Source: an uncultured Acidobacteriota bacterium
GTDB taxonomy: Bacteria; Acidobacteriota; UBA6911
Assembly (NCBI GenBank): GCA_963827655.1
Contig: CAWHCF010000023.1
Coordinates: 160,001-224,000 of the forward strand
Length of the DNA stretch: 64,000 nt
Direction: 5' to 3'
The translations under genes were made by a program, and so were the position numbers. The notes beneath the pieces were generated by a model. The model saw nothing but the letters and a program-made list of their open reading frames with translations. It ran no database searches and had not been told where the DNA came from. Each line of letters opens with the position of its first letter. Positions within the stretch are counted from its first letter, which is position 1. This document shows, piece by piece, positions 2,736 through 44,131 of the stretch.

Positions 2736-4514
2736 CTATCCGACCCCTGCCGCGCCTGAATTCCCGCCCGACCGAACCTTCCGCTCGCGCTTGAGAAACT
2801 CGGCGCCGTGCGCCCCCATTACCAGCCCGGGAACCGGCTTCAATTCGTGCCCCATGGAAACCAATTCCTTGACGATGGAAGGTTCGAGAGAGTTGGCTAC
2901 TTCTCCAGGTTCTTTCGCCTGTATCACGAGTCGCGGCGCCGCTGTCGCCTCGGAGACCGTCGACTTGAAGTCGATGATCCGTTGAGCAAGCTGGGCGCTG
3001 ACGTTGACAATCCGGCGGCCGCCGCGCAAGCCCAGCGCGACATCCCGGTCTGGGAGGCGCACGATCGTGGGAGACACATTGTTGAGCGGCCGTTTGCGCG
3101 CTCCCACAGAATTGACCAGACCCGGATGAGGATCAAACCGGCACATTCCATGACCCAGCGTGATTCCGGTCCCTGGAACCGTAAGGCAGGAACCGAATAA
3201 GCCTCCGTGCGAAATTGTTATCGCAACCAGGTTCCCGGTCTTATCCGCCGCCGAGACATGCATGGTCCCGTGTGGAGAGGGCTCAGGGAGAGCCGGGACA
3301 AGCCGGTCCACATGATTCGGAAACTGCCGGATCGTCTCAGTGCGGCCGGCTGCGTACTCCTTGTTCAACAGCCGGGCAACCGGCACTGTCGCGAAATCGG
3401 GATCCCCGACGTATGAGAGGCGATCACGCCAGGCGAGTTTGAGAATCTCGGCGAGCCGGTGCCAGTACGCCGCGGTCCTGTCCGGGACCGGTTCGAAGCA
3501 TTCCAGCATGTTGAGGATCTGGAGGCTCGACAATCCACCGTTAGGAAGAATAGCCCCGAAGACCTTCGCATCCCGGTAAACGATCTGATAAGGCTCGCTC
3601 ACCCGTGGGTCGAAGCGGGACATATCCTTTCGGGTCAAGATGCCGCCCAGACCCGCAACGTAGTCGGCAATCTTCTGTCCGATCTCCCCCTCGTAGAAGT
3701 CACGCCATCCCGAGGCTGAAATTCGCTCCAGGGTCTTTTTCATATCCGGCCTGTGCCAGATCTGGTCCTTCCCCGGGACCTTCCCGTCGGGCAAGAGGTG
3801 GCGGACACTGGGTTCGTAGCGCCGGATCATGGGCTCCTTTTGCTTGATGGCCTCTGCCGTGGGGCCGAAGGCAAAGCCATTTTCCAGCAGCGTGAGCGAC
3901 GGGGCGACAATCTCAGACCACTTCAAGCTGCCCCATCGCTCCCAGAGTCGGCCAACTCCACCCAGGGTTCCGGGGACGCCCACTGCCAGCGGACCGTACA
4001 CATTGGCGTTGTTTTCGATCCGGCATCCATACTCGTTTTCATTGATGTCTCGAGGCCCTTCCGCCAGCGGGAGCACCTTGAACATGCGTTCGTGAGCGGC
4101 TTCCGGCGCCACGGAGTTCGAGTCCAGCGACCAGACTCGATCCGCCTTGGCCTCCAGCACAACTGCACAGCAGACATATCCTCCGAGGTCCGACAGGTGC
4201 GGCTGCATTATGCAGCCTGCCAGACAGGCCGCCGCCGCTGCATCCATGGCGTTTCCGCCGCGTTCCACGATGCCGGCGCCCACACGAGCGACTTCCTCGA
4301 GCTCGGTGGCGACAGCTCCGGCGCCCGAGATCACCTCCTGCGCCCAGACGACCGATGGCGACGCCAGGGCTCTCGCTCTGGGCAAGCTGGAGATAAGTGC
4401 CGCGCCCGCCACGGTGGCGCCGACGCGGGAAGAGCTCTGCACAAATTCACGACGCGTCAGGCCAGTTCTCTTCTCGCTCCTCTTTGATTTCATGCCATCT
4501 CCCCGATTTGACAT
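2736..4514 (-). CDS. Gamma-glutamyltransferase family (Ntn-hydrolase), Tat-exported
   Basis: TRREFV Tat motif, GGNAMDAA, VGVPG, autoprocessing site HG|TMHVSAADKTGN, KRPLNNVSP. Confidence 0.9.
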   Translation of the reverse strand: MSNRGDGMKSKRSEKRTGLTRREFVQSSSRVGATVAGAALISSLPRARALASPSVVWAQEVISGAGAVATELEEVARVGAGIVERGGNAMDAAAAACLAGCIMQPHLSDLGGYVCCAVVLEAKADRVWSLDSNSVAPEAAHERMFKVLPLAEGPRDINENEYGCRIENNANVYGPLAVGVPGTLGGVGRLWERWGSLKWSEIVAPSLTLLENGFAFGPTAEAIKQKEPMIRRYEPSVRHLLPDGKVPGKDQIWHRPDMKKTLERISASGWRDFYEGEIGQKIADYVAGLGGILTRKDMSRFDPRVSEPYQIVYRDAKVFGAILPNGGLSSLQILNMLECFEPVPDRTAAYWHRLAEILKLAWRDRLSYVGDPDFATVPVARLLNKEYAAGRTETIRQFPNHVDRLVPALPEPSPHGTMHVSAADKTGNLVAITISHGGLFGSCLTVPGTGITLGHGMCRFDPHPGLVNSVGARKRPLNNVSPTIVRLPDRDVALGLRGGRRIVNVSAQLAQRIIDFKSTVSEATAAPRLVIQAKEPGEVANSLEPSIVKELVSMGHELKPVPGLVMGAHGAEFLKRERKVRSGGNSGAAGVG

Positions 4515-13315: not shown

Positions 13316-13395
13316 ATAGGGGCAGGGGCGGGCGTTCGCCGCCCCTCCCTCCGAACCGTGCAGGCGGTTTTCCCGCACACGGCTCTCCAAAGCAC
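13316..13395 (-). ncRNA. Group II intron 3' remnant (domains V-VI)
   Basis: Minus strand reads GGAGAGCCGTGTGCGGGAAAACCGCCTGCACGGTTCGGAGGGAGGGGCGGCGAACGCCCGCCCCTGCCCCTAT; AGC triad, ends in AT. Confidence 0.85.
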
Positions 13396-13399
13396 GAAA

Positions 13400-13620
13400 A
13401 CTGCTTCATTTCCTCGTCTGTCACTTTGATCCCTGTGCTGTATTTCTTTCTGATCAGGCAAGCGGTCACTGTCAGTCCCTGCTCGGTGTTCGTGCGCCGG
13501 ATGTAGTTCAGCCGTACCATAGCGGTCGAGCGGGCGGCCCGCCCATTCCTTGCTGATTTCGCTGAAGAGCCGGTGCTCGATGATATTCCACTTGGATGCA
13601 CCGGTGGGATAGTGTCGCAT
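13400..13620 (-). pseudogene. ISAzo13-family transposase C-terminal fragment
   Basis: HYPTGASKWNIIEHRLFSEISKEWAGRPL, then in another frame LNYIRRTNTEQGLTVTACLIRKKYSTGIKVTDEEM. Confidence 0.85.
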
Positions 13621-23527: not shown

Positions 23528-23790
23528 TGAAGTGCGCTAGCTTGCTTAGAGGATGTGAAAAAATTCGGTCTGTGGCGCGGGTCATCAGACCCGTCGCAAG
23601 TAACGTGATCGGGAGGATTTAAAGTTCTTTTGTGCCACTAGGGGGCCGGACGGGCTTGATAGCCCGTCCGCACATGAACCAGGCGAGTTTTGCAACAGTC
23701 TCAATCAGACCCGCGCCACAAAAGCCAAAGGGTTGGCGTTCAATCGAGAGCGCAACACAAGGCGCAAGCAAGCTTGCGCACTCCAAGGGG
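23528..23790. repeat. Nested REP/MITE composite
   Basis: In order: half REP AGTGCGCTAGCTTGCT; IS1182-end-like 18-mer (23548-23565); REP arms TGTGGCGCGGGTC (23571-83) and GACCCGCGCCACA (23708-20) enclosing MITE-2 (23587-23701); intact reverse REP GGCGCAAGCAAGCTTGCGCACTCCA. Confidence 0.7.
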
Positions 23791-35774: not shown

Positions 35775-36340
35775 GGATCGCAATTGAGCAACCTGTACGG
35801 GTCCGTGCTTCAAAAGGCTGGTTGACAGGCCCGCATGGGCATCGCCAAGCCGGCGACATCTCTGTCCAGACCTTGACGAAAAAAATCGGCCGTTCAAGCG
35901 CATAGCCTTGGCCGTGATGAAAGGGGGGCGCCGACGTTAGCCCGCCGTCGTTGGTGAAGGGCTTATGAGAAAAAAATCCCAATTCCCGGGCCGCGTTCGC
36001 CGTCGGCTGGAGCCTCGGGGTCGAACTTCAGCCGTCGCGTCTGGTGCGGCTCGAAGACCCGTGGCTCGGGACGACGCGGACGATGAACGTCTGACGCCTG
36101 CGGCAGTTCGCAAGCTTCGCCGGGAGGTCCTTTCCACATGCGCCGGCGTAGTGAGTAGCCGCGCCTCAATCGGTCTGCTGCCGTCTCTTTGCGTCCTGGC
36201 GGTGGTTTTGTTGTCTGACCACCAAGCCTCGAAGAAACACTTCGACTAATCGCTTGACAAGCCGAAAAGCATCCGAATATCCTCCGACCAATACTAGATT
36301 TGCATGACTCAAAGCAGTGCCTCTTCGAAGGAGGGCTACC

Positions 36341-39300
36341 ATGAGATTGATCCACGTCCGCTCAACGTGTCGTTGCACCCTATCGCTTCTTACGCTTCTC
36401 GCGGCTTTCGGTGGCCGTGTGTACGGCCAGGAGGTGAACGCCTCCGTTCACGGAATCGTGCAGGACAACAGCGGTTCTGTGATCCCGGGAGTCGAGGTCC
36501 AGGTGCGCAGCCTCGACACCAACCGGGTCTTCCGGGCGCTGACCGACGAGTCGGGGAACTACAACATCACCCAGGTGCCCATCGGCCGCTACGAGGTTGG
36601 GGCCGAGCTCCAGGGGTTCAAGAAAGCGGTTGTGACCGACATCGTGCTGCGCGTTAACGACCGGCGCCGGGTCAACTTCACCCTCGAGGTCGGAGGCATC
36701 ACCGAGATAGTCACGGTGGCGGCCTCGCTGGTTGCGGTCGACACCGCCTCGGGCACGACCAGCAGCATCATGGGGAGTGAAGACCTGCTGCAGCTCCCGT
36801 CCTCGGGACGCCAGGTCATGCCCTTCTCGATGATCATGCCCGGCGTGACCGGCAGGAACACCGACACGCGGACCAGCCAGCAGCAAGCAGTCAACGGCGT
36901 CCGGCCGACGCACAACGCCTGGCTGCTCGACGGCGGCTACAACATCGACACGGGCGGAAACTGGGGCATGCCGATGGCTCCGAACATGGAGACCGTGGCC
37001 GAGTTCCGCGCCATTCGCGGCAACTACAGCGCCGAGTTCGGCATCGGCGGCGGGAGCCAGTTCAATGTCGTCACGCGCGGCGGGAGCAACGAGTTCCACG
37101 GCGCCCTCTCGTGGTACCACCGCGCCGACTGGATCAACGCCCGCAACTTCTTCTCCCCCACCAAAGAGCCCTTCCGGAACAACGATTTCGGCGGTTCAAT
37201 CGGCGGTCCCGTCATCATCCCGGGACTCTACCACGGGCGCGACAAGACCTTCTTCTTCGCCTTCTTCGGCGCGCGGACCGAGCGCAGGGAGGAGCGCTTC
37301 ACGTCCAAGGTTCCCGAGATGGCCTACCGCACCGGTGATTTCAGTACGCTGGGAACGGTCATCCGCGATCCGGCGACGGGTGAGCCTTTCCCGGGCAACA
37401 TCATCCCCGCCAACCGCATCGACACCTTCGCCAAGAACTATACGGCGGTCTATCCGGCGCCGAACTTCAGGGACAGCCTGGGCAACAACTACACGGTCTT
37501 ACAGCCGCGCAGTTTCAACCTCCCGCAGCAAAACTACCGGATCGATCACCACTTCAACGAGCGGCACCGGATCTTCGGGCGCTATGCGCGGGAGTTTCAG
37601 GAATCCGAATACTTCACCGGTCCGGGATTCGATAACTTCCTGCGCCGCGACGAGGTGCCGGTCAACAACACGGTGATCAATTTCTACTCGACCTTCAGCC
37701 CGACGCTCCTCAACGAGGTGAGCTTCACGCGCAGCCACAACCGGATCATGCAGTTCCCGCCGGAGTTCCCGCGCGACCAGTACGGTCTCAACATCCCGGA
37801 GCTGGTCCCGCAGACCGAGGAGAATTACCCGCTGGACAGCCTGAACCTGAGCACGATTCCCGACAAGGCACCCAACATCACGATCACGAACTACAGGGCC
37901 ATTGACCCGGCGGCGCCATGGAGCAACTACCAATCGATCTTCGACTTCAAGGACAACCTCACCTGGGTGCGGGGGCGGCACACGCTGAAAACCGGCTTTG
38001 ACTACGCCTACGAGAAGAAGTTCGAGCCCGCGGACACGAATGTCTTCGGCGCGTTTAACTTCGACGGCCGCTTCAGCGGCGATGGCTACTCGGACTTTCT
38101 CCTGGGCCGGGCCGTCAGCTACAACGAGTCGAGCTCCGTTTCGTTCAACGACAACCGGCGTCACGCGCTCGAGCTCTATCTCGACGACAGCTGGAAAACG
38201 AGCCGCCGTCTCACCCTCAACCTGGGTGTGCGCTACTCGTACTTCCCTCCCTCCGGCGAGCCCGACGAACGCTACCGTTTCTTCCTTCCCTCCGCCTACG
38301 ATCCCTCCAAGGCCGTGACGGTGCTGCCAAACGGCCAGATTCCGCGGACTGGCGGCGACCGTTTCAACGGCCTCGCCAACCCAAAGGACTACTGGGATTA
38401 TACTGCCTGGAACTTCGCGCCGCGCTTCGGCTTCGCTTACGACCTCTTCGGCAACGGCGTGACGGCCGTCCGGGGCGGCTACGGGATCTTCTACAGCCGC
38501 GAGATCCTGGGGGCATTCATACTGATCGCTTCGAACCCGCCCTTCCAGGAGCGGTTGGAGATCGAGAACACAAGCCTCAGCAACCCCGGCGGAGGCTCGA
38601 CCCGCAATTTCGACCTGCCGATCAATCTGAGCTCGATGGACACGAAGCAGCACACGCCGTACACGCAGCAGTGGAACCTTAACATCCAGCAGTCGCTGAC
38701 CAGGGGGACCGTGCTGGAGGTCGGATATGCCGGCTCGCGGGCGCTGCACATGATGCGTTCCCGCGACCTCAACCTGGGGCCGTTAAGCGCGGACGTTGCC
38801 GCCGGCCGGATCAACGCCGCCGCGCTCCGTCCGTACAGCGGCTGGGGGTCGATTTCGCACCGCGAACAGAGCTACGGCTCGGTGTATCACGGGCTTCAGA
38901 TCGGGTTGGACCGTCGCTTCCACGCCGGCCTGGGCATCAAGGCTGCGTACACCTGGTCGAAGGCCATCGACGACGCCGAGTTCACGGGCGGGATCTATGG
39001 TCTTTCCGCGTACTATCCCACCCACCTGAACGGGCAGAGAGGGCCGGCCACTTACGACACCCCTCACCGCTTTGTGGCAAGCTACATCTACCAGTTGCCC
39101 GGGTTTTCGAACCACAACGCCCTGGTCCGGGGCGTCCTGGGCGGGTGGTCAATCTCAGGGATCACCGTGTTCGAGACCGGATACCCGTTCACGCCGACGA
39201 TCGGACGAGACCTGGCCGGCCTGGGCGGAGCGCTCGATCAGCGGCCGCTGGTCGCCGGCAATTGGAAGATGGAGGAGCGGATCGGGACCCTGTACTTCAG

Positions 39301-39577
39301 CCCCGACGCATTCGTCCTGCCGGCAGCCGGCACGCTCGCGCCCACGGGGCGCAACTTCATGCGTCTCCCCGGTACCCATAACTGGGACCTCTCGCTGGCG
39401 AAGGACTTCTCGCTCCACGAGCGATCCAAGCTCGAGTTCCGCGCCGAGGCCTTCAACGCGTTCAACCACACCCAGTTCTCCGCGGTAGGGACGAACATGA
39501 ACGCCGCCAACTTCGGGCACGTCACCACGGCAAGGTCGCCCCGGACCATGCAGCTCAGCATGCGGATAACGTTTTAG
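36341..39577 (+). CDS. TonB-dependent receptor (Oar-like), intact
   Basis: HGIVQDNSGSVIPG, NYSAEFG, RGGSNEFHG, LDDSWK, FAPRFG, FRAEAFNAFNH, terminal F; GGAGG RBS. Confidence 0.92.
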   Translation: MRLIHVRSTCRCTLSLLTLLAAFGGRVYGQEVNASVHGIVQDNSGSVIPGVEVQVRSLDTNRVFRALTDESGNYNITQVPIGRYEVGAELQGFKKAVVTDIVLRVNDRRRVNFTLEVGGITEIVTVAASLVAVDTASGTTSSIMGSEDLLQLPSSGRQVMPFSMIMPGVTGRNTDTRTSQQQAVNGVRPTHNAWLLDGGYNIDTGGNWGMPMAPNMETVAEFRAIRGNYSAEFGIGGGSQFNVVTRGGSNEFHGALSWYHRADWINARNFFSPTKEPFRNNDFGGSIGGPVIIPGLYHGRDKTFFFAFFGARTERREERFTSKVPEMAYRTGDFSTLGTVIRDPATGEPFPGNIIPANRIDTFAKNYTAVYPAPNFRDSLGNNYTVLQPRSFNLPQQNYRIDHHFNERHRIFGRYAREFQESEYFTGPGFDNFLRRDEVPVNNTVINFYSTFSPTLLNEVSFTRSHNRIMQFPPEFPRDQYGLNIPELVPQTEENYPLDSLNLSTIPDKAPNITITNYRAIDPAAPWSNYQSIFDFKDNLTWVRGRHTLKTGFDYAYEKKFEPADTNVFGAFNFDGRFSGDGYSDFLLGRAVSYNESSSVSFNDNRRHALELYLDDSWKTSRRLTLNLGVRYSYFPPSGEPDERYRFFLPSAYDPSKAVTVLPNGQIPRTGGDRFNGLANPKDYWDYTAWNFAPRFGFAYDLFGNGVTAVRGGYGIFYSREILGAFILIASNPPFQERLEIENTSLSNPGGGSTRNFDLPINLSSMDTKQHTPYTQQWNLNIQQSLTRGTVLEVGYAGSRALHMMRSRDLNLGPLSADVAAGRINAAALRPYSGWGSISHREQSYGSVYHGLQIGLDRRFHAGLGIKAAYTWSKAIDDAEFTGGIYGLSAYYPTHLNGQRGPATYDTPHRFVASYIYQLPGFSNHNALVRGVLGGWSISGITVFETGYPFTPTIGRDLAGLGGALDQRPLVAGNWKMEERIGTLYFSPDAFVLPAAGTLAPTGRNFMRLPGTHNWDLSLAKDFSLHERSKLEFRAEAFNAFNHTQFSAVGTNMNAANFGHVTTARSPRTMQLSMRITF

Positions 39578-39612
39578 TCACGGACGTCAGAACGTGTGAA
39601 GAAATTGGTCTG

Positions 39613-40381
39613 ATAGGGGTAGGGAGGATCGATTGAGTTCGATCCCCCCTCCCTCCGAACCGGACGTGCGGATCTCCCGCATCCGGCTCTCCAGTCGGTG
39701 GTTCACCTCGAAGAGGGAAGACGTGCCATTCAGAGGCGTTGGTCAGGATCCCACACCTGCGAATGTAACTGAAAACTTTCGCGATTGGTTTCCAGTTGCC
39801 CGGATGACCAAGGCTGTCAACATGCATCTCACGTGCGCTGCCAGTTCCGGCCACGGGGTTCAACCCGTCGCTCTCTCCGACTCGCATAGCCCTTGGGCAT
39901 TAGCGTCGGTTCGTCTTCTGTCAGTCACGCATCCATGCATCCACCTCCCTGCGCTCCTTTGCTCCAGGCCCATTACGGCCCTTCCCCGCTCTTATGAGCG
40001 CTCTGACTCTGCCCGCCTGGCTCTTCGGCTCTTCCGAGCATGAACTCCGGCTCCTGCTACGAGCAGGTCTCCCTGATTCACGCACTTGATCTTCCGATCC
40101 CTCCGTCTCCAACCACCAGTCAGTCCCCCAACGTCGCTTTCGCACGCTACCCCTCAGCTCGTCGAGTCTCCCGCTTTTGCGGGTCTAGGTTTTGCCTTAC
40201 GCCAGCAGGCTCGCCGATACAGACCGGCCGAATCGAGTTCGTTATCCTACGGATGGATCGTTCACCTCCTGCTGCTCCCCACCCCGCCTCACGGCGACGC
40301 AGTTGCATTCGGTTTCAGGCCGGAGAGCGTATGCCTGGAGAGGACTTTCACCTCTCTGATCATGTGCGCTTTAAGGCGCAC
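39613..40381 (-). ncRNA. ORF-less group II intron A (769 nt)
   Basis: 5' GTGCG at 40381. Domain V GAGCCGGATGCGGGAGATCCGCACGTCCGGTTC, domain VI, ends CCCCTAT at 39613. No RT ORF. Removal restores the repeat seen intact at 23548-23610. Confidence 0.9.
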
Positions 40382-40532
40382 TGGCGACGGGTCATAGACC
40401 CGTCGCAAGTAACGTGATAGCTGAGACTTAGCCTTAAAAAGTTCATTTGTGCTACTAGGGGGCCGGACGGGCTTGATAGCCCGTCCGAACATGTATCGGG
40501 TCGTTCTGCGACGGTCTCTAATGACCCGCGCC
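40382..40532. repeat. REP-like hairpin containing MITE family 2 (40396-40517)
   Basis: Arms TGGCGACGGGTCA / TGACCCGCGCC. Inner ends AGACCCGTCGCAAG...CTGCGACGGTCT. Inner hairpin GGACGGGCTTGATAGCCCGTCC. Confidence 0.72.
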
Positions 40533-40548
40533 TCGGAACCGCCAGGAA

Positions 40549-41430
40549 ATGAGGACCAACCCCATGACTAAACTCTCAAGACTGATTCTCCTCTCCCTGC
40601 TGCTGCCGGCCGGGACAATTACGGCCGACCGGCCCGCGGAAATCCCGCTCTGGCCGAGCGGCGCACCCGGCTCGGAGGGTAAGGCGACGCGGGAGGTCGT
40701 AGCTACCTCGGAAACGGGTGAGCTGCGCGTCTCGAGCATCCACAATCCGAGCATCACGCCGTATCTCCCCGCGAAGGACAAGGCCACCGGCGCCGCAGTG
40801 CTCGTCATCCCGGGGGGCGGTCACCGGCTGCTCGCGATAACCCACGAGGGTTACAACGTGGCGGAGTGGCTGGCCGAGCGCGGCATCGCCGCTTTCGTCC
40901 TCAAACACCGTCTGGCGCGCGAGCCGGGCTCGACCTATCAGGTGGAGGTCCACTCGCTCCAGGACACGCAGCGCGCCCTTCGTCTCATCCGCAGCCGCGC
41001 CGCGGAGTGGGGGGTGGATGCCGCGCGCCTGGGCGTGATGGGCTTCTCGGCCGGCGGCGAGCTCGCGGCGCTCGCCAGCATGCGCTTCGACAATGGCATC
41101 GAAGGCGCCGCCGACGCTGTCGACCGGCAGGGCTCAAAGCCCGCCTTCCAGGCGCTGATCTATCCCGGCGCCTCGAGCAAGATCGTTCCCGCCAAGGACT
41201 CGCCACCGGTGTTCCTGGCGTGTGGCTATGGTGACCGGCCCGACATCTCCGAAGGCCTGGCGACCGTGTATCTCGCGTTCAAGAAGGTCGGCGTTCCGGC
41301 GGAGCTCCACATCTACGCCGGCGCCGGACACGGCTTCGGCTTGCGCGCGTCCAATCGCACTCCGGCCGCGAGCTGGCCGGAGCGCTTCAAGGATTGGCTG
41401 GCGGACCGCGGGTTCTTGGGCAAGTCCTGA
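40549..41430 (+). CDS. Alpha/beta hydrolase (carbohydrate esterase-like), secreted
   Basis: IPLWPSGAPG, PGGG, GFSAGG, ELHIYAGAGHGFG. Confidence 0.9.
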   Translation: MRTNPMTKLSRLILLSLLLPAGTITADRPAEIPLWPSGAPGSEGKATREVVATSETGELRVSSIHNPSITPYLPAKDKATGAAVLVIPGGGHRLLAITHEGYNVAEWLAERGIAAFVLKHRLAREPGSTYQVEVHSLQDTQRALRLIRSRAAEWGVDAARLGVMGFSAGGELAALASMRFDNGIEGAADAVDRQGSKPAFQALIYPGASSKIVPAKDSPPVFLACGYGDRPDISEGLATVYLAFKKVGVPAELHIYAGAGHGFGLRASNRTPAASWPERFKDWLADRGFLGKS

Positions 41431-41458
41431 GCCTCAATCGGCGGATCGGCTGACTTTG

Positions 41459-42226
41459 ATAGGGGTAGGGAGGACCGATTGAGTTCGATCCCCCCTCCCT
41501 CCGAACCGGACGTGCGGATCTCCCGCATCCGGCTCTCCAGTCGGTGGTTCACCTCGATGAGGGTTGACATGCCATTCGGAGGCAGTGGTCAGGATCCCAT
41601 ACCTGCAAATGGAACTGAAAACCTTCGCGACTGGTCTCCAGTTGCTCTGATGACCAAGGCTGTCAACATGCATCTCGCGTGGGCTGCCAGTTCACGCCAC
41701 GGGTTGAACCCGTGGTTCTCTCCGACTCGCTTAGCCCTTGGGCACTCGCATCGGTTTGTCTTCTGTCAGTCCCGCGTCCATGCATCCACCTCCCTGCGCC
41801 CCTTTGCTCCAGGCCCATTACGGCCCTTCCTCGCTCCTATGGGCGCTCTGACTCCTGCACGCCCGGTTCTTCGGCTCTTGCGAGCATGAACACCGGCTCC
41901 TGTTACGGACAGGTCTCCCTGATTCACGCACTTGATCTTCCGATCCCTCCGTCTCCAACCACCGGTCAGGCCCCGACGTCGCTTTCGCACGCTACCCCTC
42001 AGCTCGTCGAGTCTCCCGCTCTCGCGGGTCTAGGCTTCGCCATTCGCTCGCAGGCTCGCCGACACAGACCGGCCGAATCGAGTTCGTTATCCTACGGATG
42101 GATCGTTCACCTCCTGCTGCTCCCCACCCCGCCTCACGGCGACGCAGTTGCAGTCGGTTACAGGCCGGAGAGCGTTTACCTGGAGAGGACTTTCACCTCT
42201 CTGATCATGTGCGCTTACAGGCGCAC
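41459..42226 (-). ncRNA. ORF-less group II intron B (768 nt)
   Basis: Colinear with and highly similar to intron A. 5' GTGCG at 42226, 3' CCCCTAT at 41459. Removal restores TTGGAGTGCGCAAGCTTGCTTGCGCC, identical to the reverse complement of 23761-23786. Confidence 0.9.
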
Positions 42227-42280
42227 GAGTGCGCAAGCTTGCTTGCGCCTTGGATTGCGGCAGCTTGCTGCCGCACCCGC
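42227..42280. repeat. REP doublet (GAGTGCGCAAGCTTGCTTGCGC...GCGGCAGCTTGCTGCCGC)
   Basis: Two hairpins with an AGCTTGCT core; same layout as 271-628. Confidence 0.75.
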
Positions 42281-42439
42281 GAAATGGCCAACTCGTGCCC
42301 CTCACGGGCGGGCCTGGCGAAGCAACGCCAGACTAAGGCGGTTGGTTCATGAATACGTTAACGTATTGGCCAGAGCGGTAGGAGTCGGCGGTGTTGTCGC
42401 CCAGGGCCAAAGGCCCGGCAGGGAGTAGCCCCGCCCGAC

Positions 42440-44131
42440 AGAAAGTGTGAGAAAATTAGTGTCTGTGAGCGCTATATATTTAACATCTTTTTTTTCTCTT
42501 TGCGGGAGTAGCGAGACAGAGATGAGGGTCAGACAGCCGCAGCGTTGAGGGAAGGTTCAGCATAGAAGAACGGTGATAACCGTGGTCGGTAGAGCTGAGG
42601 CTTCTTAAGCTGCGTACAACCTGCTGGACTCTCCAGCGCAGCCGAATCCACTGCTGAATGTTGTAGGTCAGACAAGCCACATCCCTTCGATCGTGACTTT
42701 GATTAGCCACGCAAGCGGAATTGCCGCAGACCAATTTGCTCTTCAACCATGCATTGGGAACTCGCACTGGGCCGTTGACGGTAAATCGTTTTGCTCCGTC
42801 CATTGCCTAAAGCAGCGACTGCAGGAGCCAGTTCAGTGCGCTAATAGCGCGCCCTCGCTGAGCCTCGGGACAACACTGTTTTAAAAGCACAAGTTAGACG
42901 ATCGATGCCACAGCCTGATAGCTATAGCGTATCCTTCCCCGGTTCCTTCAAAGGTAGGTTAGAGTCTTACCCGCTGGGCAAATGTAACGATCGCTGGATG
43001 CTTCATAAATGAAAAACTCTGGCAGAAATTCCGGAGCATGCCGCGTGTTCAAAGTGTCCCGCAGAAACTCTTGTCTGCGCAAACGCTCCGATCAAATCGA
43101 TCCCTTTGTCGCTCATCGCCAGGATCGTTTCTCCGGTCGTAAAAGCCCCGTCCACAACCACCTGTGTCGGTAAGTTGCGTACGTTTTCTTGATCGCTCGA
43201 TGGCTTTAACCGACTGCCCTGATGACTGCCCTTGTCACCCCCACCCCCACGATAACCCGGCGGCAGCATCGGTCAAACTGTACGTGATAGCACGGCGCTA
43301 ATCCTCCGTCTGATTGCTACATGATCCGCGCCTCGGGGTCGCTCTCGCTCACTCTGGCTTCCTTCTTAGCTTCCGCTCCCTCCTTACGTGCCCGAATCTT
43401 TTCCAGTTCCTCTACGGCCGACTCCAAATGCGCCTGCGCCTCTTGCGCTCGGTGCGCGCTTTTACCACGCGAACCGTCATCTCCTCTTCCGACACTTCCT
43501 CCAGCGCCTTCACTTGTGCCCGAGCTAATCGTAGATGGGTCTGGACCCGCGACTGTCGGCGAAAACTCTGCCCGGATGCGCGGGCTATCATTCGTCCCGT
43601 CATGCATCACTCGTTGCAACGTGACTAGCCCTTCCGAGCTTAGTACTCCCGAAACCTGCACAAATAGCTCTCTCAAGGCCTCCTGATGGTCCACCGGAAA
43701 ATCCGACAAGCTGTGGTAATTGACGGGCTCCATGGCCGTCAGCCATTGATACGCCGGATGGTAGCTGCATAACCGTGAGATCTCTCGCGCCGAACTCACC
43801 CCTTCGCTGTAGCCATAGAACCACAGACTGATCATTAAAATTGGATCCAGAGCCGGTCGCCCGGCTACCCCTGCCACGGCTTCTATCTCTCGGTAGAACC
43901 GGCTCAGATCCAATCGCCCTACCAAGTGCCAAAGCGCTCGCACTGGGTGATCCGCTTCCACCAACTCCTCCACGTTTACTGGTCGCATCAACATTTGTCG
44001 GCGATTAATTACCTTCATCCTCGGCGTGCCGCGAGATTCTTCGCTCAATTCCTCCTCCCTCATTGCGGTTGTTAATCAATGAGAGATATATTCCTTCAGT
44101 GTGCATTCGTTTGAATTTTTTAACAGCTTCT
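42440..44131 (-). mobile_element. Degenerate IS1182-family insertion sequence
   Basis: Transposase pieces INRRQ...LVEADHPVR...GRPALDP...SSAREISRLC...NYHSLSDF (43317-44063), VVVDGAF and ACLTYNIQQWIRL. Imperfect TIRs AGAAAGTGTGAGAAAATT / AGAAGCTGTTAAAAAATT (14/18). Confidence 0.85.

What the first reader, a model, noticed from the sequence alone, without database searches (positions are those of the whole stretch)
39613..42226. Two ORF-less group II introns inserted at the same register in two different REP-like repeats, with putative EBS1 tracking each target
Seen: two colinear ~770-nt group II ribozymes (GTGCG...domain V with AGC triad...CCCCTAT) with no RT ORF. Removing A restores GGTCTG|TGGCG..., matching the empty repeat at 23567-23610. 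Removing B restores TTG|GAGTGCGCAAGCTTGCTTGCGCC, matching the empty repeat at 23761-23786 (reverse). Both insert after the first G of the hairpin's tetranucleotide foot (G|TGG, G|GAG), 2-4 nt downstream of a stem-loop on the intron strand, with C as the first 3'-exon base. At one homologous loop the introns differ. A has TGGCG (40204-40200), fully complementary to its 5' exon end CGCCA. B has GAGCG (42049-42045), 4/5 complementary to its exon end CACTC. Established: EBS1-IBS1 pairing sets target choice, and insertion next to hairpins is the hallmark of class IIC, whose domain V normally has a CGC triad. Inference: a non-autonomous, apparently non-IIC intron lineage mobilised in trans that has been retargeted between REP families by EBS1 change.
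Basis: partly seen in the sequence, partly recalled or inferred. Interest (0 to 1): 0.88.

Follow-up and report, generated by a model that had tools for sequence, protein, structure and literature searches.

The report
ORF-less hairpin-targeting group II introns
Two protein-less copies of a self-splicing mobile RNA element sit just after DNA hairpins of two different intergenic repeat families, and the five-base guide loop that picks the insertion site differs between them as their targets do; they belong to a widespread hairpin-seeking intron lineage that behaves like class IIC but is not a standard member.

Summary
Window 39613-40381(-) and 41459-42226(-) are 769- and 768-nt group II introns with intact domains V-VI and no RT gene. 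Both empty repeat sites exist.

Over 30 distinct EBS1/5'-exon pairs from relatives, 24 pair at 5 of 5 positions and 5 at 4 of 5.

RT-bearing relatives (about 1.85-1.95 kb, En-less RT) occur in Acidobacteriota, Planctomycetota and other phyla. Of 68 distinct insertion sites, 57 lie 0-8 nt (mode 3) after a perfect hairpin of at least 6 bp. Recognition is hairpin, 5-bp EBS1 and 1-bp EBS3, with no EBS2. That is IIC-like behaviour.

The ribozyme has an AGC triad and a 5-nt domain V loop, and matches no Rfam D1-D4 model. Its RT clade is separate from canonical IIC; the relation between them is unresolved.

A and B share one internal ORF deletion. The genome holds four full copies and one fragment, and no cognate RT as assembled. 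Spread after ORF loss with an RT in trans is therefore inferred, not shown.

Given IIC, HYER ribozymes and a 2022 survey of terminator-adjacent C-related introns, this is a new variant of a known kind.

The parts
39613..40381 (-). Intron A, ORF-less group II intron, 769 nt
   Evidence: RF00029 57.9 bits at 39613-39691. Ends GTGCGCC...CTACCCCTAT. Full-length match to the lineage 5' profile.
41459..42226 (-). Intron B, ORF-less group II intron, 768 nt, 91.8% identical to A
   Evidence: RF00029 57.5 bits at 41459-41537. Alignment to A.
40200..40204 (-). EBS1 of A (UGGCG, intron positions 178-182)
   Evidence: Pairs 5 of 5 with the 5' exon end CGCCA. The column covaries across relatives.
42045..42049 (-). 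EBS1 of B (GAGCG)
   Evidence: Pairs 4 of 5 with CACUC, with a C-A mismatch at position 4.
40382..40386 (-). IBS1 of A (CGCCA, last 5 nt of the 5' exon)
42227..42231 (-). IBS1 of B (CACUC)
40384..40406 (.). Target hairpin of A (REP-like family 1, GCGACGGG...CCCGTCGC). It ends 2 nt before the insertion site.
   Evidence: There are 78 both-strand hits of this palindrome in the genome, about 39 copies.
42231..42248 (.). Target hairpin of B (REP-like family 2, GCGCAAGC..GCTTGCGC). It ends 4 nt before the insertion site.
   Evidence: There are 22 both-strand hits, 11 copies.
40113..40113 (-). EBS3 of A (G, intron position 269). It pairs with the first 3'-exon base C (window 39612).
   Evidence: This is the column that best pairs with the first 3'-exon base, 93% of 45 distinct introns with 3 base types.
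41959..41959 (-). EBS3 of B (G). It pairs with the 3'-exon C at 41458.
   Evidence: coordinate read.
40326..40330 (-). alpha of A (ACGCU, positions 52-56, in a hairpin loop)
   Evidence: A 5-bp long-range helix with positions 234-238, 4 of 5 pairs covarying.
40144..40148 (-). alpha' of A (AGCGU, positions 234-238), predicted to lie in a terminal loop of the Id3 region
   Evidence: with the RNAalifold consensus. Placement in a terminal loop is a prediction.
39656..39689 (-). Domain V of A: AGC triad and a 5-nt loop GAGAU
39717..39936 (-). Domain IV remnant of A (positions 446-665). It keeps about the first 47 codons of the RT gene, up to MLTAL, and the gene's 3' end.
   Evidence: Colinear with B at 86.5%.
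23567..23610 (-). Unoccupied family 1 repeat (...CGCCA|CAGACC)
23761..23786 (+). Unoccupied family 2 repeat (GCGCACTC|CAAGG)

Best explanation
A and B are internal-deletion (ORF-less) derivatives of a retroelement lineage of group II introns.

The lineage chooses DNA targets as class IIC introns do. It inserts a few nucleotides downstream of a DNA hairpin. It reads the last five exon bases with a 5-nt EBS1 and the first downstream base with a 1-nt EBS3. It has no EBS2.

One ORF-less ancestor lost about 1.1 kb of the RT gene and kept the ribozyme. Its descendants then inserted at several hairpin-bearing intergenic repeats of this genome. That needs reverse splicing by the ribozyme and cDNA synthesis by a reverse transcriptase supplied in trans. 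This cognate RT is not in the present assembly.

Subfamily A (EBS1 UGGCG) sits in three copies of repeat family 1 (...CGCCA|C). Subfamily B (EBS1 GAGCG) sits in one copy of family 2 (...CACUC|C), a near-cognate site.

Shown: the anatomy, the EBS1/EBS3 assignments, the hairpin rule, the shared deletion and the independent insertion sites. Inferred: mobility after ORF loss, the RT in trans, and present ribozyme activity.
For: (1) Identity as group II introns.

(2) EBS1:
- 30 distinct EBS1/IBS1 pairs from 68 distinct sites: 24 at 5 of 5, 5 at 4 of 5, 1 at 2 of 5. The mean is 4.73, against 2.6 in permutations.
- Pairing is confined to positions 1-5 (44-47 of 47 paired) and drops to 5 of 47 at position 6.

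(3) Hairpin rule:
- 57 of 68 sites have a perfect stem of at least 6 bp ending 0-8 nt (mode 3) before the site, against 203 of 1360 shuffles.
- One relative genome (G005) has 14 distinct sites for one 1873-nt intron. Its copies read there are 99.9-100% identical. All 14 follow hairpins whose arms differ in sequence. The exon ends CCTA in 13 sites and CCTG in 1, and the next base is C in 14 of 14.

(4) EBS3 covaries with the first 3'-exon base.

(5) Deletion derivative: D1-D3 and D5-D6 align with RT-bearing relatives. The D4 remnant keeps the ORF start up to MLTAL and the ORF's 3' end.

(6) One deletion, then spread:
- A, B, C36:239848-240617, C5:19899-20666 and the fragment at C13:1188-1690 share the same D4 remnant.
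- A and the C36 copy are 99.1% identical, while their host repeats are 80% (5' flank) and 52% (3' flank) identical.

(7) Constraint after ORF loss: A against B differs by 7.2% in D1-D3, 1.9% in D5-D6 and 13.5% in the D4 remnant. Core against remnant gives Fisher p = 0.0014. At least one compensatory pair is seen, 385/427 U-A to C-G.

(8) An independent ORF-less copy (761 nt) lies beside an RT-bearing copy in another phylum's MAG (L086).
Against: - No cognate RT is present in the assembly (8.18 Mb, 53 contigs, 90% complete). PF00078 and PF08388 find only a canonical IIC RT on C22 and a fragment on C49. tblastn with 44 lineage RTs finds nothing else. The C22 RT is spread over three frames as assembled.
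- The C5 copy has a damaged domain V, and one copy is a fragment truncated at both ends.
- About 31 family 1 sites with the right tail remain empty.
- Subfamily A carries GGCAAAACC where nearly all relatives have GGCGAAGCC in the EBS1 stem.
- B's EBS1 mismatches its site at one position.
- Both introns are antisense to their neighbouring genes, so there is no obvious transcription.
- No splicing or expression evidence was obtained.
Confidence: 0.72

Rival explanations
1. The copies are dead relics. The ORF-less element, or an RT-bearing parent followed by repeated gene conversion of the deletion, spread long ago. Nothing is mobile or catalytic now, and the EBS1 difference is only inherited history.
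For: No cognate RT in the assembly. One copy has a broken domain V and one is a fragment. Many target sites are empty. The A-type D4 remnant was found in only 2 of 137 genomes of the class. Metagenome contigs gave 0 hits with two junction patterns.
Against: A, the C36 copy and the fragment are 99% identical, while their host repeats are 52-80% identical. This points to recent insertions. The ribozyme core is about twice as conserved as the D4 remnant. Domains V-VI of A and B score as high as those of RT-bearing relatives.
Confidence: 0.15
2. The ORF-less copies are kept as stand-alone ribozymes of the HYER kind. HYERs are ORF-less IIC-type introns that cut DNA or RNA hydrolytically, guided by the EBS1-type site. 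On this reading the copies are not merely non-autonomous parasites.
For: ORF-less group IIC introns with DNA and RNA hydrolysis activity and a short reprogrammable recognition site are published (Liu et al. 2024). I saw this work only as described in passages of PMC11754743 and PMC12990946. A and B keep an intact catalytic core under constraint.
Against: Nothing here bears on catalysis. The copies still had to be inserted by a retroelement mechanism. They retain RT-gene remnants typical of recent deletion derivatives. The family is nearly confined to one genome.
Confidence: 0.1
3. The helper is the resident canonical IIC intron's RT (contig C22), not a cognate RT.
For: That intron sits in the same repeat family 1, 6 nt further from the hairpin. 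It is the only full-length group II RT gene in the assembly.
Against: The C22 RT is 39% identical to a lineage RT over 252 residues and belongs to another clade. It is split over three frames as assembled. Group II RTs normally bind their own intron's domain IV (established knowledge, recalled).
Confidence: 0.05

Closest known systems
Group IIC (bacterial class C) introns, e.g. those of Bacillus halodurans, Oceanobacillus iheyensis, GsI-IIC and the Eubacterium rectale intron
   Same: Insertion just downstream of a DNA hairpin, short EBS1-IBS1, EBS3-IBS3 and no EBS2. The RT of about 450 aa lacks an endonuclease domain. The best solved-structure hits of a lineage RT are IIC RTs: 7uim_D 236 bits, 6ar1 227 bits, against 173 for a IIB RT and 151 for a IIA RT.
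   Different: - The triad is AGC, not CGC, and domain V has a 5-nt loop.
- No Rfam D1D4-3/-1 match, unlike 10 of 10 canonical IIC loci in the phylum sample.
- Separate RT clade.
- EBS1 is 5 bp, against the 3-4 bp cited for IIC (PMC7923331 passage).
- Targets are GC-rich hairpins without the T-run seen before canonical IIC copies.
HYER ribozymes (ORF-less group IIC introns; Liu et al., Science 2024, known to me only through PMC11754743 and PMC12990946)
   Same: Natural ORF-less introns of a hairpin-type lineage, about 640-770 nt, with a short guide site.
   Different: No activity data here. A and B keep recognisable RT-gene remnants, have non-canonical domain V features, and sit in REP-like repeats.
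ORF-less derivatives mobilised or spliced in trans in Thermosynechococcus elongatus (PMC2882425, search listing and abstract only) and Trichodesmium (as described in PMC12584367, introduction read)
   Same: Deletion derivatives that multiply or splice with an RT from a related intron, with divergence of target specificity.
   Different: Those are chloroplast-like IIB introns with ordinary sequence homing, and the helper intron is in the same genome. Here targeting is hairpin-based and no cognate helper is assembled.
Classes E and F (IIE/IIF; PMC3753933, introduction and three results/discussion sections read)
   Same: A 5-nt domain V loop, alpha' in a terminal loop of Id3, a compact ribozyme (450-700 nt without ORF) and an En-less RT. 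The host phyla overlap those of the class F core (So.us.I2, Ge.ur.I1, c-Ku.st.I1, as named in PMC4244168).
   Different: E and F introns are described with EBS2-IBS2 and without hairpin dependence. The lineage here shows no EBS2. Membership in the RT clade could not be tested.
IEP types g6, U1 and U2 of Miura et al. 2022 (PMC8919778, passages read)
   Same: Reported to lie near class C on the IEP tree and to sit immediately after predicted terminators.
   Different: g6 is said to have IIC RNA structure (PMC4244168), which this lineage does not show.

Membership tests
Group II intron (Rfam RF00029) | Domains V and VI matching the covariance model above the gathering score | tested here: met
   57.9 and 57.5 bits against a gathering score of 40.
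Group II intron | 5' GUGYG, a bulged A near the 3' end of D6, a 3' AY, and EBS1-IBS1 pairing | tested here: met
   GTGCG...CTACCCCTAT. EBS1. The branch A is inferred from the model alignment.
Class IIC | Insertion directly downstream of a stem-loop (terminator or attC) | tested here: met
   57 of 68 distinct sites, against 203 of 1360 shuffles. A is 2 nt and B 4 nt after a hairpin.
Class IIC | No EBS2-IBS2 | tested here: met
   Identical intron copies sit after hairpin arms of differing sequence. The best complement to exon -6..-16 is little above shuffles: 14 of 80 against 59 of 800 with runs of 7 or more.
Class IIC | Shortened EBS1-IBS1 (3-4 bp, as cited in PMC7923331) | tested here: inconclusive
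   Exactly 5 bp here. This is shorter than the 6 bp cited for IIA and IIB but longer than 3-4.
Class IIC | CGC catalytic triad in domain V (as cited in PMC7923331; 'for some introns' in PMC4424553) | tested here: not met
   AGC in 36 of 36 distinct lineage domain V sequences. CGC in the three canonical IIC loci inspected and in the C22 intron.
Class IIC | IIC-type D1-D4 RNA (Rfam D1D4-3/-1, as carried by the canonical terminator-targeting introns of this phylum) | tested here: not met
   No hit at gathering in the window or in 15 lineage loci. Hits in 10 of 10 canonical loci. That D1D4-3 equals IIC is my inference from those loci's CGC triad and terminator exons.
Class IIC | RT inside the class C clade | tested here: inconclusive
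   The lineage RTs form their own clade (SH-aLRT 100) beside the canonical clade (99). Lineage plus IIC as one clade is not rejected (p-AU 0.507). Lineage plus the D1D4-4 type is not rejected either (0.554). No class-labelled reference sequences were on hand.
Classes E/F (IIE/IIF) | 5-nt loop in domain V | tested here: met
   29 of 35 fold with a 5-nt loop (GAGAU, GAGAA, GAAAU or GAAAA). In 5 of the other 6 RNAfold adds a closing pair, leaving a 3-nt loop; the sixth gives an 8-nt loop. The feature is as stated in PMC3753933.
Classes E/F (IIE/IIF) | alpha' at the end of a stem-loop in Id3 | tested here: met
   A covarying 52-56/234-238 helix, with 234-238 inside a predicted 17-nt terminal loop. 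The loop context is a prediction.
Classes E/F (IIE/IIF) | EBS2-IBS2 pairing upstream of IBS1 | tested here: not met
Classes E/F (IIE/IIF) | RT inside the class E or F clade | not testable with these tools
   No labelled E or F sequences were available. The supplements of PMC3552965 and PMC4244168 are closed.
HYER | ORF-less IIC-type intron | tested here: inconclusive
   ORF-less: yes. IIC-type: see the rows above.
HYER | Protein-free hydrolytic cleavage of DNA or RNA | not testable with these tools
   Needs a biochemical assay.

The most novel reading that the evidence does not exclude
DNA-hairpin-guided targeting is not confined to class IIC. A separate, widespread clade has a IIB-like (E/F-type) ribozyme: AGC triad, 5-nt domain V loop and alpha' in a terminal loop. 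This clade uses hairpin plus a 5-bp EBS1 plus EBS3.

The clade has spawned a SINE-like ORF-less family. That family kept moving and re-aiming between REP families in a genome that no longer carries its RT. The family may also act as a stand-alone DNA- or RNA-cutting ribozyme.

This would mean that hairpin recognition arose twice or predates the split of C and F. It would also mean that the 'EBS2' drawn for some class F introns is not used.
Probability: 0.3. Interest if true: 0.75.

Novelty: new variant of a known kind. Interest (0 to 1): 0.55.

Why it matters
Hairpin targeting is what lets IIC introns spread with little harm. It is also the basis of recent structural work and of the HYER tools. 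[quoted passage not shown]

This is a clade with different ribozyme features and the same target logic. It offers dozens of natural EBS1 variants and multi-copy genomes. That gives a comparative handle on how hairpin recognition is built, and on whether it lies in the RT or the RNA.

The ORF-less family adds a bacterial case of a non-autonomous group II element. It multiplied in REP-like repeats, and its guide changed between subfamilies. Such ORF-less elements are called rare in bacteria (PMC4424553).

Tried and rejected
- Rfam at permissive threshold on 39500-42400 gave only a 19-bit sub-threshold D1D4-4 match in B. It was not used as evidence of class.
- An RT-bearing parent in the own genome was not found.
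- Sequencing runs. Only Logan contigs were available, with no run holding more than 0.56 of the sampled words. Contigs laid mostly on the conserved domain V and on pieces of domain I. No contig joined the exons across the intron, and no expression or splicing can be read from this. The one joint listed (40158 to 40226, one RNA-library contig, side 27) is too weak to use.
- Two junction patterns for the A-type deletion in metagenome contigs: 0 matches each.
- A-type D4 remnant across 137 genomes of the class: own genome, plus a weak 72% match over 93 nt in G007.
- G007's contigs C243 and C165 do not reconstruct an ORF-less copy. C165 holds only a 5'-truncated 3' part, homologous to A positions 558-769.
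- RT phylogeny could not place the lineage relative to IIC or to the D1D4-4 type.
- A sequence profile of D1-D3 against other intron types gave only weak hits: 18 and 15 bits to two basal D1D4-3 loci, and 12.5 bits to one D1D4-4 locus. I draw no conclusion from this.
- Simon et al. 2008 (RNA 14:1704) is not held. The supplementary lists of PMC8919778, PMC3552965 and PMC4244168, which could name the IEP type, are closed.
- In the held library, searches found no report of hairpin-dependent targeting by class E/F or IIB introns. [quoted passage not shown]
Full report
WHAT IS THERE

Rfam's group II intron model (domains V-VI) matches the - strand at 39613-39691 (57.9 bits) and 41459-41537 (57.5 bits). 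A third, shorter match lies at 13316-13387 (47.3 bits).

Read on the - strand, the first two elements run from GTGCGCC to CTACCCCTAT. They are 769 nt (A, 39613-40381) and 768 nt (B, 41459-42226) long. They are 91.8% identical.

The whole genome (8.18 Mb, 53 contigs, 90% complete) holds two more full copies and a fragment:
- C36:239848-240617, 99% identical to A.
- C5:19899-20666, 97% identical, with a mutated domain V.
- A fragment truncated at both ends at C13:1188-1690, covering intron positions 98-599.

INSERTION SITES

A and the C36 and C5 copies all lie in one repeat family. The site reads ...cacgttacttGCGACGGG(loop)CCCGTCGC-CA | intron | CAG.... That palindrome occurs about 39 times, as 78 both-strand hits. 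About 31 copies carry an unoccupied CAC(A/T)-type tail, and 3 are occupied.

B lies in a second family: GCGCAAGCAAGCTTGCGC-ACTC | intron | CAA. That family has 11 copies.

A and the C36 copy are 99.1% identical. Their host repeats are only 80% (5' flank) and 52% (3' flank) identical. These are therefore separate insertions, not duplicated segments.

Both introns lie between + strand genes and are antisense to them. The genes are an outer-membrane beta-barrel protein (36317-39577) and an alpha/beta hydrolase (40549-41430).

RELATIVES

A DNA search of 51 genomes of the same family found related introns in which positions 1-445 and 666-769 of A are separated by about 1.3 kb.

In G005 the element is 1873 nt and encodes a 448-aa RT/maturase (TIGR04416, 404 bits) with no endonuclease domain. 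I read 14 distinct insertion sites for it. Ten copies were checked against a reference: nine are 100% identical and one is 99.95%.

An RT-seeded scan of one genome per species returned 80 loci with RTs 60-68% identical to the G005 RT, apart from G005's own copies at 100%. They come from Acidobacteriota, Planctomycetota, Desulfomonilaceae and others. A profile of the 5' part found 82 full-length starts.

EBS1, EBS3 AND THE HAIRPIN RULE

EBS1. In the alignment, the loop after the invariant CCUGC varies while its flanks (GGCGAGCC...GGCGAAGCC) do not. The loop is A positions 178-182, window 40204-40200. It matches the last bases of each 5' exon.
- Over 30 distinct loop/exon combinations, 24 pair at 5 of 5, 5 at 4 of 5 and 1 at 2 of 5.
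- The mean is 4.73, against 2.6 (maximum 3.57) in 2000 permutations.
- Pairing covers exactly five positions: 44-47 of 47 are paired at positions 1-5, and 5 of 47 at position 6.

EBS3. The first 3'-exon base pairs with A position 269 (GGUG-N-UUGG). It is G with C in most introns. It is A with T in three lineages and U with A in two. There is one wobble case and one mismatch.

Hairpin. Of 68 distinct sites, 57 have a perfect hairpin of at least 6 bp ending 0-8 nt (mode 3) before the site, against 15% of shuffled exons. By eye, several of the remaining 11 have imperfect hairpins.

No EBS2. The G005 copies sit after hairpins whose arm sequences differ, while the exon end CCTA (CCTG in one site) and the following C are kept. 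So the stem is read as structure and there is no EBS2-IBS2. A search for complementarity to exon -6..-16 was little above shuffles.

A and B. A has UGGCG against CGCCA (5 of 5). B has GAGCG against CACUC (4 of 5). The two EBS1 changes between A and B (positions 178 and 179) are the ones that track exon positions -1 and -2.

WHICH KIND OF GROUP II INTRON

In behaviour the lineage matches class IIC. It does not carry the canonical IIC marks.
- Domain V has AGC in 36 of 36 distinct sequences. It folds with a 5-nt loop in 29 of 35.
- None of Rfam's D1-D4 models reaches threshold in the window or in 15 lineage loci.
- For comparison, ten other introns from the phylum sample match D1D4-3. This count includes the own genome's RT-bearing intron on C22.
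- Where I inspected those D1D4-3 introns, they have CGC triads, and their 5' exons are hairpins followed by T-runs.
- A covarying long-range helix (52-56 with 234-238) fits alpha-alpha', with alpha' in a predicted terminal loop.

Nagy et al. 2013 list the 5-nt domain V loop and the terminal-loop alpha' as idiosyncrasies of classes E and F (PMC3753933, introduction). The D1D4-4-type introns of the phylum share the AGC/5-nt-loop domain V. By eye they show no upstream hairpin.

For the proteins:
- A lineage RT scores best against solved IIC RTs (236 and 227 bits). It scores 173 bits against a IIB RT and 151 bits against a IIA RT.
- A bona fide IIC RT (C22) discriminates much more sharply: 395 and 256 bits against 74-93.
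- In a 47-row tree the lineage, with L130 and L132, is one clade (SH-aLRT 100). The D1D4-3 group is another (99). Their order is unresolved.
- Forcing lineage plus IIC (p-AU 0.507), or lineage plus the D1D4-4 type (0.554), is not rejected.

I therefore file the lineage as IIC-like in mechanism and not shown to be a member of class C.

What the literature says:
- Miura et al. 2022 report that the IEP types g6, U1 and U2, close to C on their tree, also sit right after predicted terminators (PMC8919778).
- g6 is said to have IIC RNA structure (PMC4244168).
- The class F core named there comes from an acidobacterium, a planctomycete, a Geobacter and a Pelotomaculum. This overlaps the hosts seen here.
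- Without labelled sequences I cannot say which type this lineage is.

THE ORF-LESS STATE

D1-D3 and D5-D6 of A and B align with RT-bearing relatives. The closest is L053, at 83-85% over D1-D3.

The 220-nt interior keeps the start of the RT frame up to the conserved MLTAL, and the last part of the gene. About 1.1 kb is missing.

All five copies in the genome carry the same remnant. So one deletion preceded the split into subfamilies A and B, and preceded the later insertions.

Since that split, D1-D3 changed by 7.2%, D5-D6 by 1.9% and the remnant by 13.5%. Core against remnant gives p = 0.0014. A compensatory U-A to C-G change is seen in the D3 stem. This fits continued selection on the ribozyme.

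A second ORF-less copy arose independently. It is 761 nt and has a different remnant. It lies back to back with an RT-bearing copy in a betaproteobacterial MAG.

THE MISSING HELPER

The assembly has no lineage RT.

Its only long group II RT belongs to the canonical IIC intron on C22. That intron sits in the same repeat family 1, six bases further from the hairpin. Its reading frame is spread over three frames as assembled.

Mobilisation in trans is thus the simplest account of one deletion at five places. Neither the helper nor present activity is shown.

Public read sets gave only fragments. One contig from an RNA library covers 40134-40255 with four changes in the EBS1 loop. They give GAGUGA, a perfect match to B's CACUC. 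This is a lead, not evidence.

COMPARISON AND VERDICT

The closest known systems are:
- class IIC introns;
- the ORF-less IIC-derived HYER ribozymes (known to me only through PMC11754743 and PMC12990946);
- the ORF-less derivatives served in trans in cyanobacteria (PMC2882425 abstract; PMC12584367 introduction);
- classes E and F, for ribozyme details.

The main correction is that hairpin-side insertion and EBS1 tracking are ordinary properties of a whole, widespread lineage, not a peculiarity of these two copies.

What is new is modest:
- a hairpin-targeting clade with non-canonical ribozyme features;
- a defined 5-bp EBS1 with a mode-3-nt hairpin spacing;
- a multi-copy ORF-less family in REP-like repeats of a genome with no cognate RT assembled.

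Noticed in passing
window 13316-13387 (-) and 13520-13620 (-): A third domain V-VI match (47.3 bits, AGC triad, 5-nt loop GAAAA) has no 5' part of an intron. It lies directly downstream of a frameshifted fragment of an ISAzo13-type transposase (PF07592, E 5e-11).
   Followed up: partly
G000 C22:191506-193457 (-) (loci L001, L002, L146): A single-copy canonical IIC intron of 1952 nt. It matches Rfam D1D4-3 at 129 bits and has a CGC triad. It is inserted in the same repeat family 1 as intron A but 6 nt further from the hairpin. Its RT reads in three different frames as assembled.
   Followed up: partly
L086 (betaproteobacterial MAG), + copy 1038-2929 and - copy 3346-4106 in oriented coordinates: An RT-bearing (1892 nt) and an ORF-less (761 nt) member of the lineage sit back to back. 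Each follows one of two adjacent hairpins on opposite strands. The ORF-less one pairs with its exon through a G-U wobble.
   Followed up: partly
L067:3040-3084 and L054:3097-3143: Acido-Lenti-1 RNA motif (RF01687, 46.8 and 39.8 bits) lies about 130-210 nt downstream of lineage introns in two MAGs. It may be a repeat-type hairpin of the kind these introns target.
   Followed up: no
window 40187-40195 (A positions 187-195); the same in the C36, C5 and C13 copies: Subfamily A has GGCAAAACC where B and nearly all relatives have GGCGAAGCC, in the stem and internal loop below EBS1. These are two changes at otherwise near-invariant positions, shared by all A-type copies.
   Followed up: no
run X15, record 13, laid on window 40134-40255: A 124-nt contig from a rhizosphere RNA library is about 94% like intron A. 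It carries an EBS1 loop reading GAGUGA, which would pair perfectly with the family 2 exon end CACUC where B sits.
   Followed up: no
window 23560-23790, 40384-40540, 42231-42300: The target hairpins are parts of larger composite intergenic repeat arrays. Several different hairpin units recur in the same order, for example ...GGGGCCGGACGGGCTTGATAGCCCGTCCG... and CGGCAGCAAGCTGCCG next to the family 2 hairpin.
   Followed up: partly
L126 (G129:C2): Two D1D4-3 matches lie 640 nt apart. The second intron's start follows the CGC domain V and domain VI of the first, so this looks like tandem or nested canonical IIC introns.
   Followed up: no
window 43320-44063 (-): ORF with a DUF772 transposase domain (E 7e-11), about 1 kb from intron B.
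   Followed up: no
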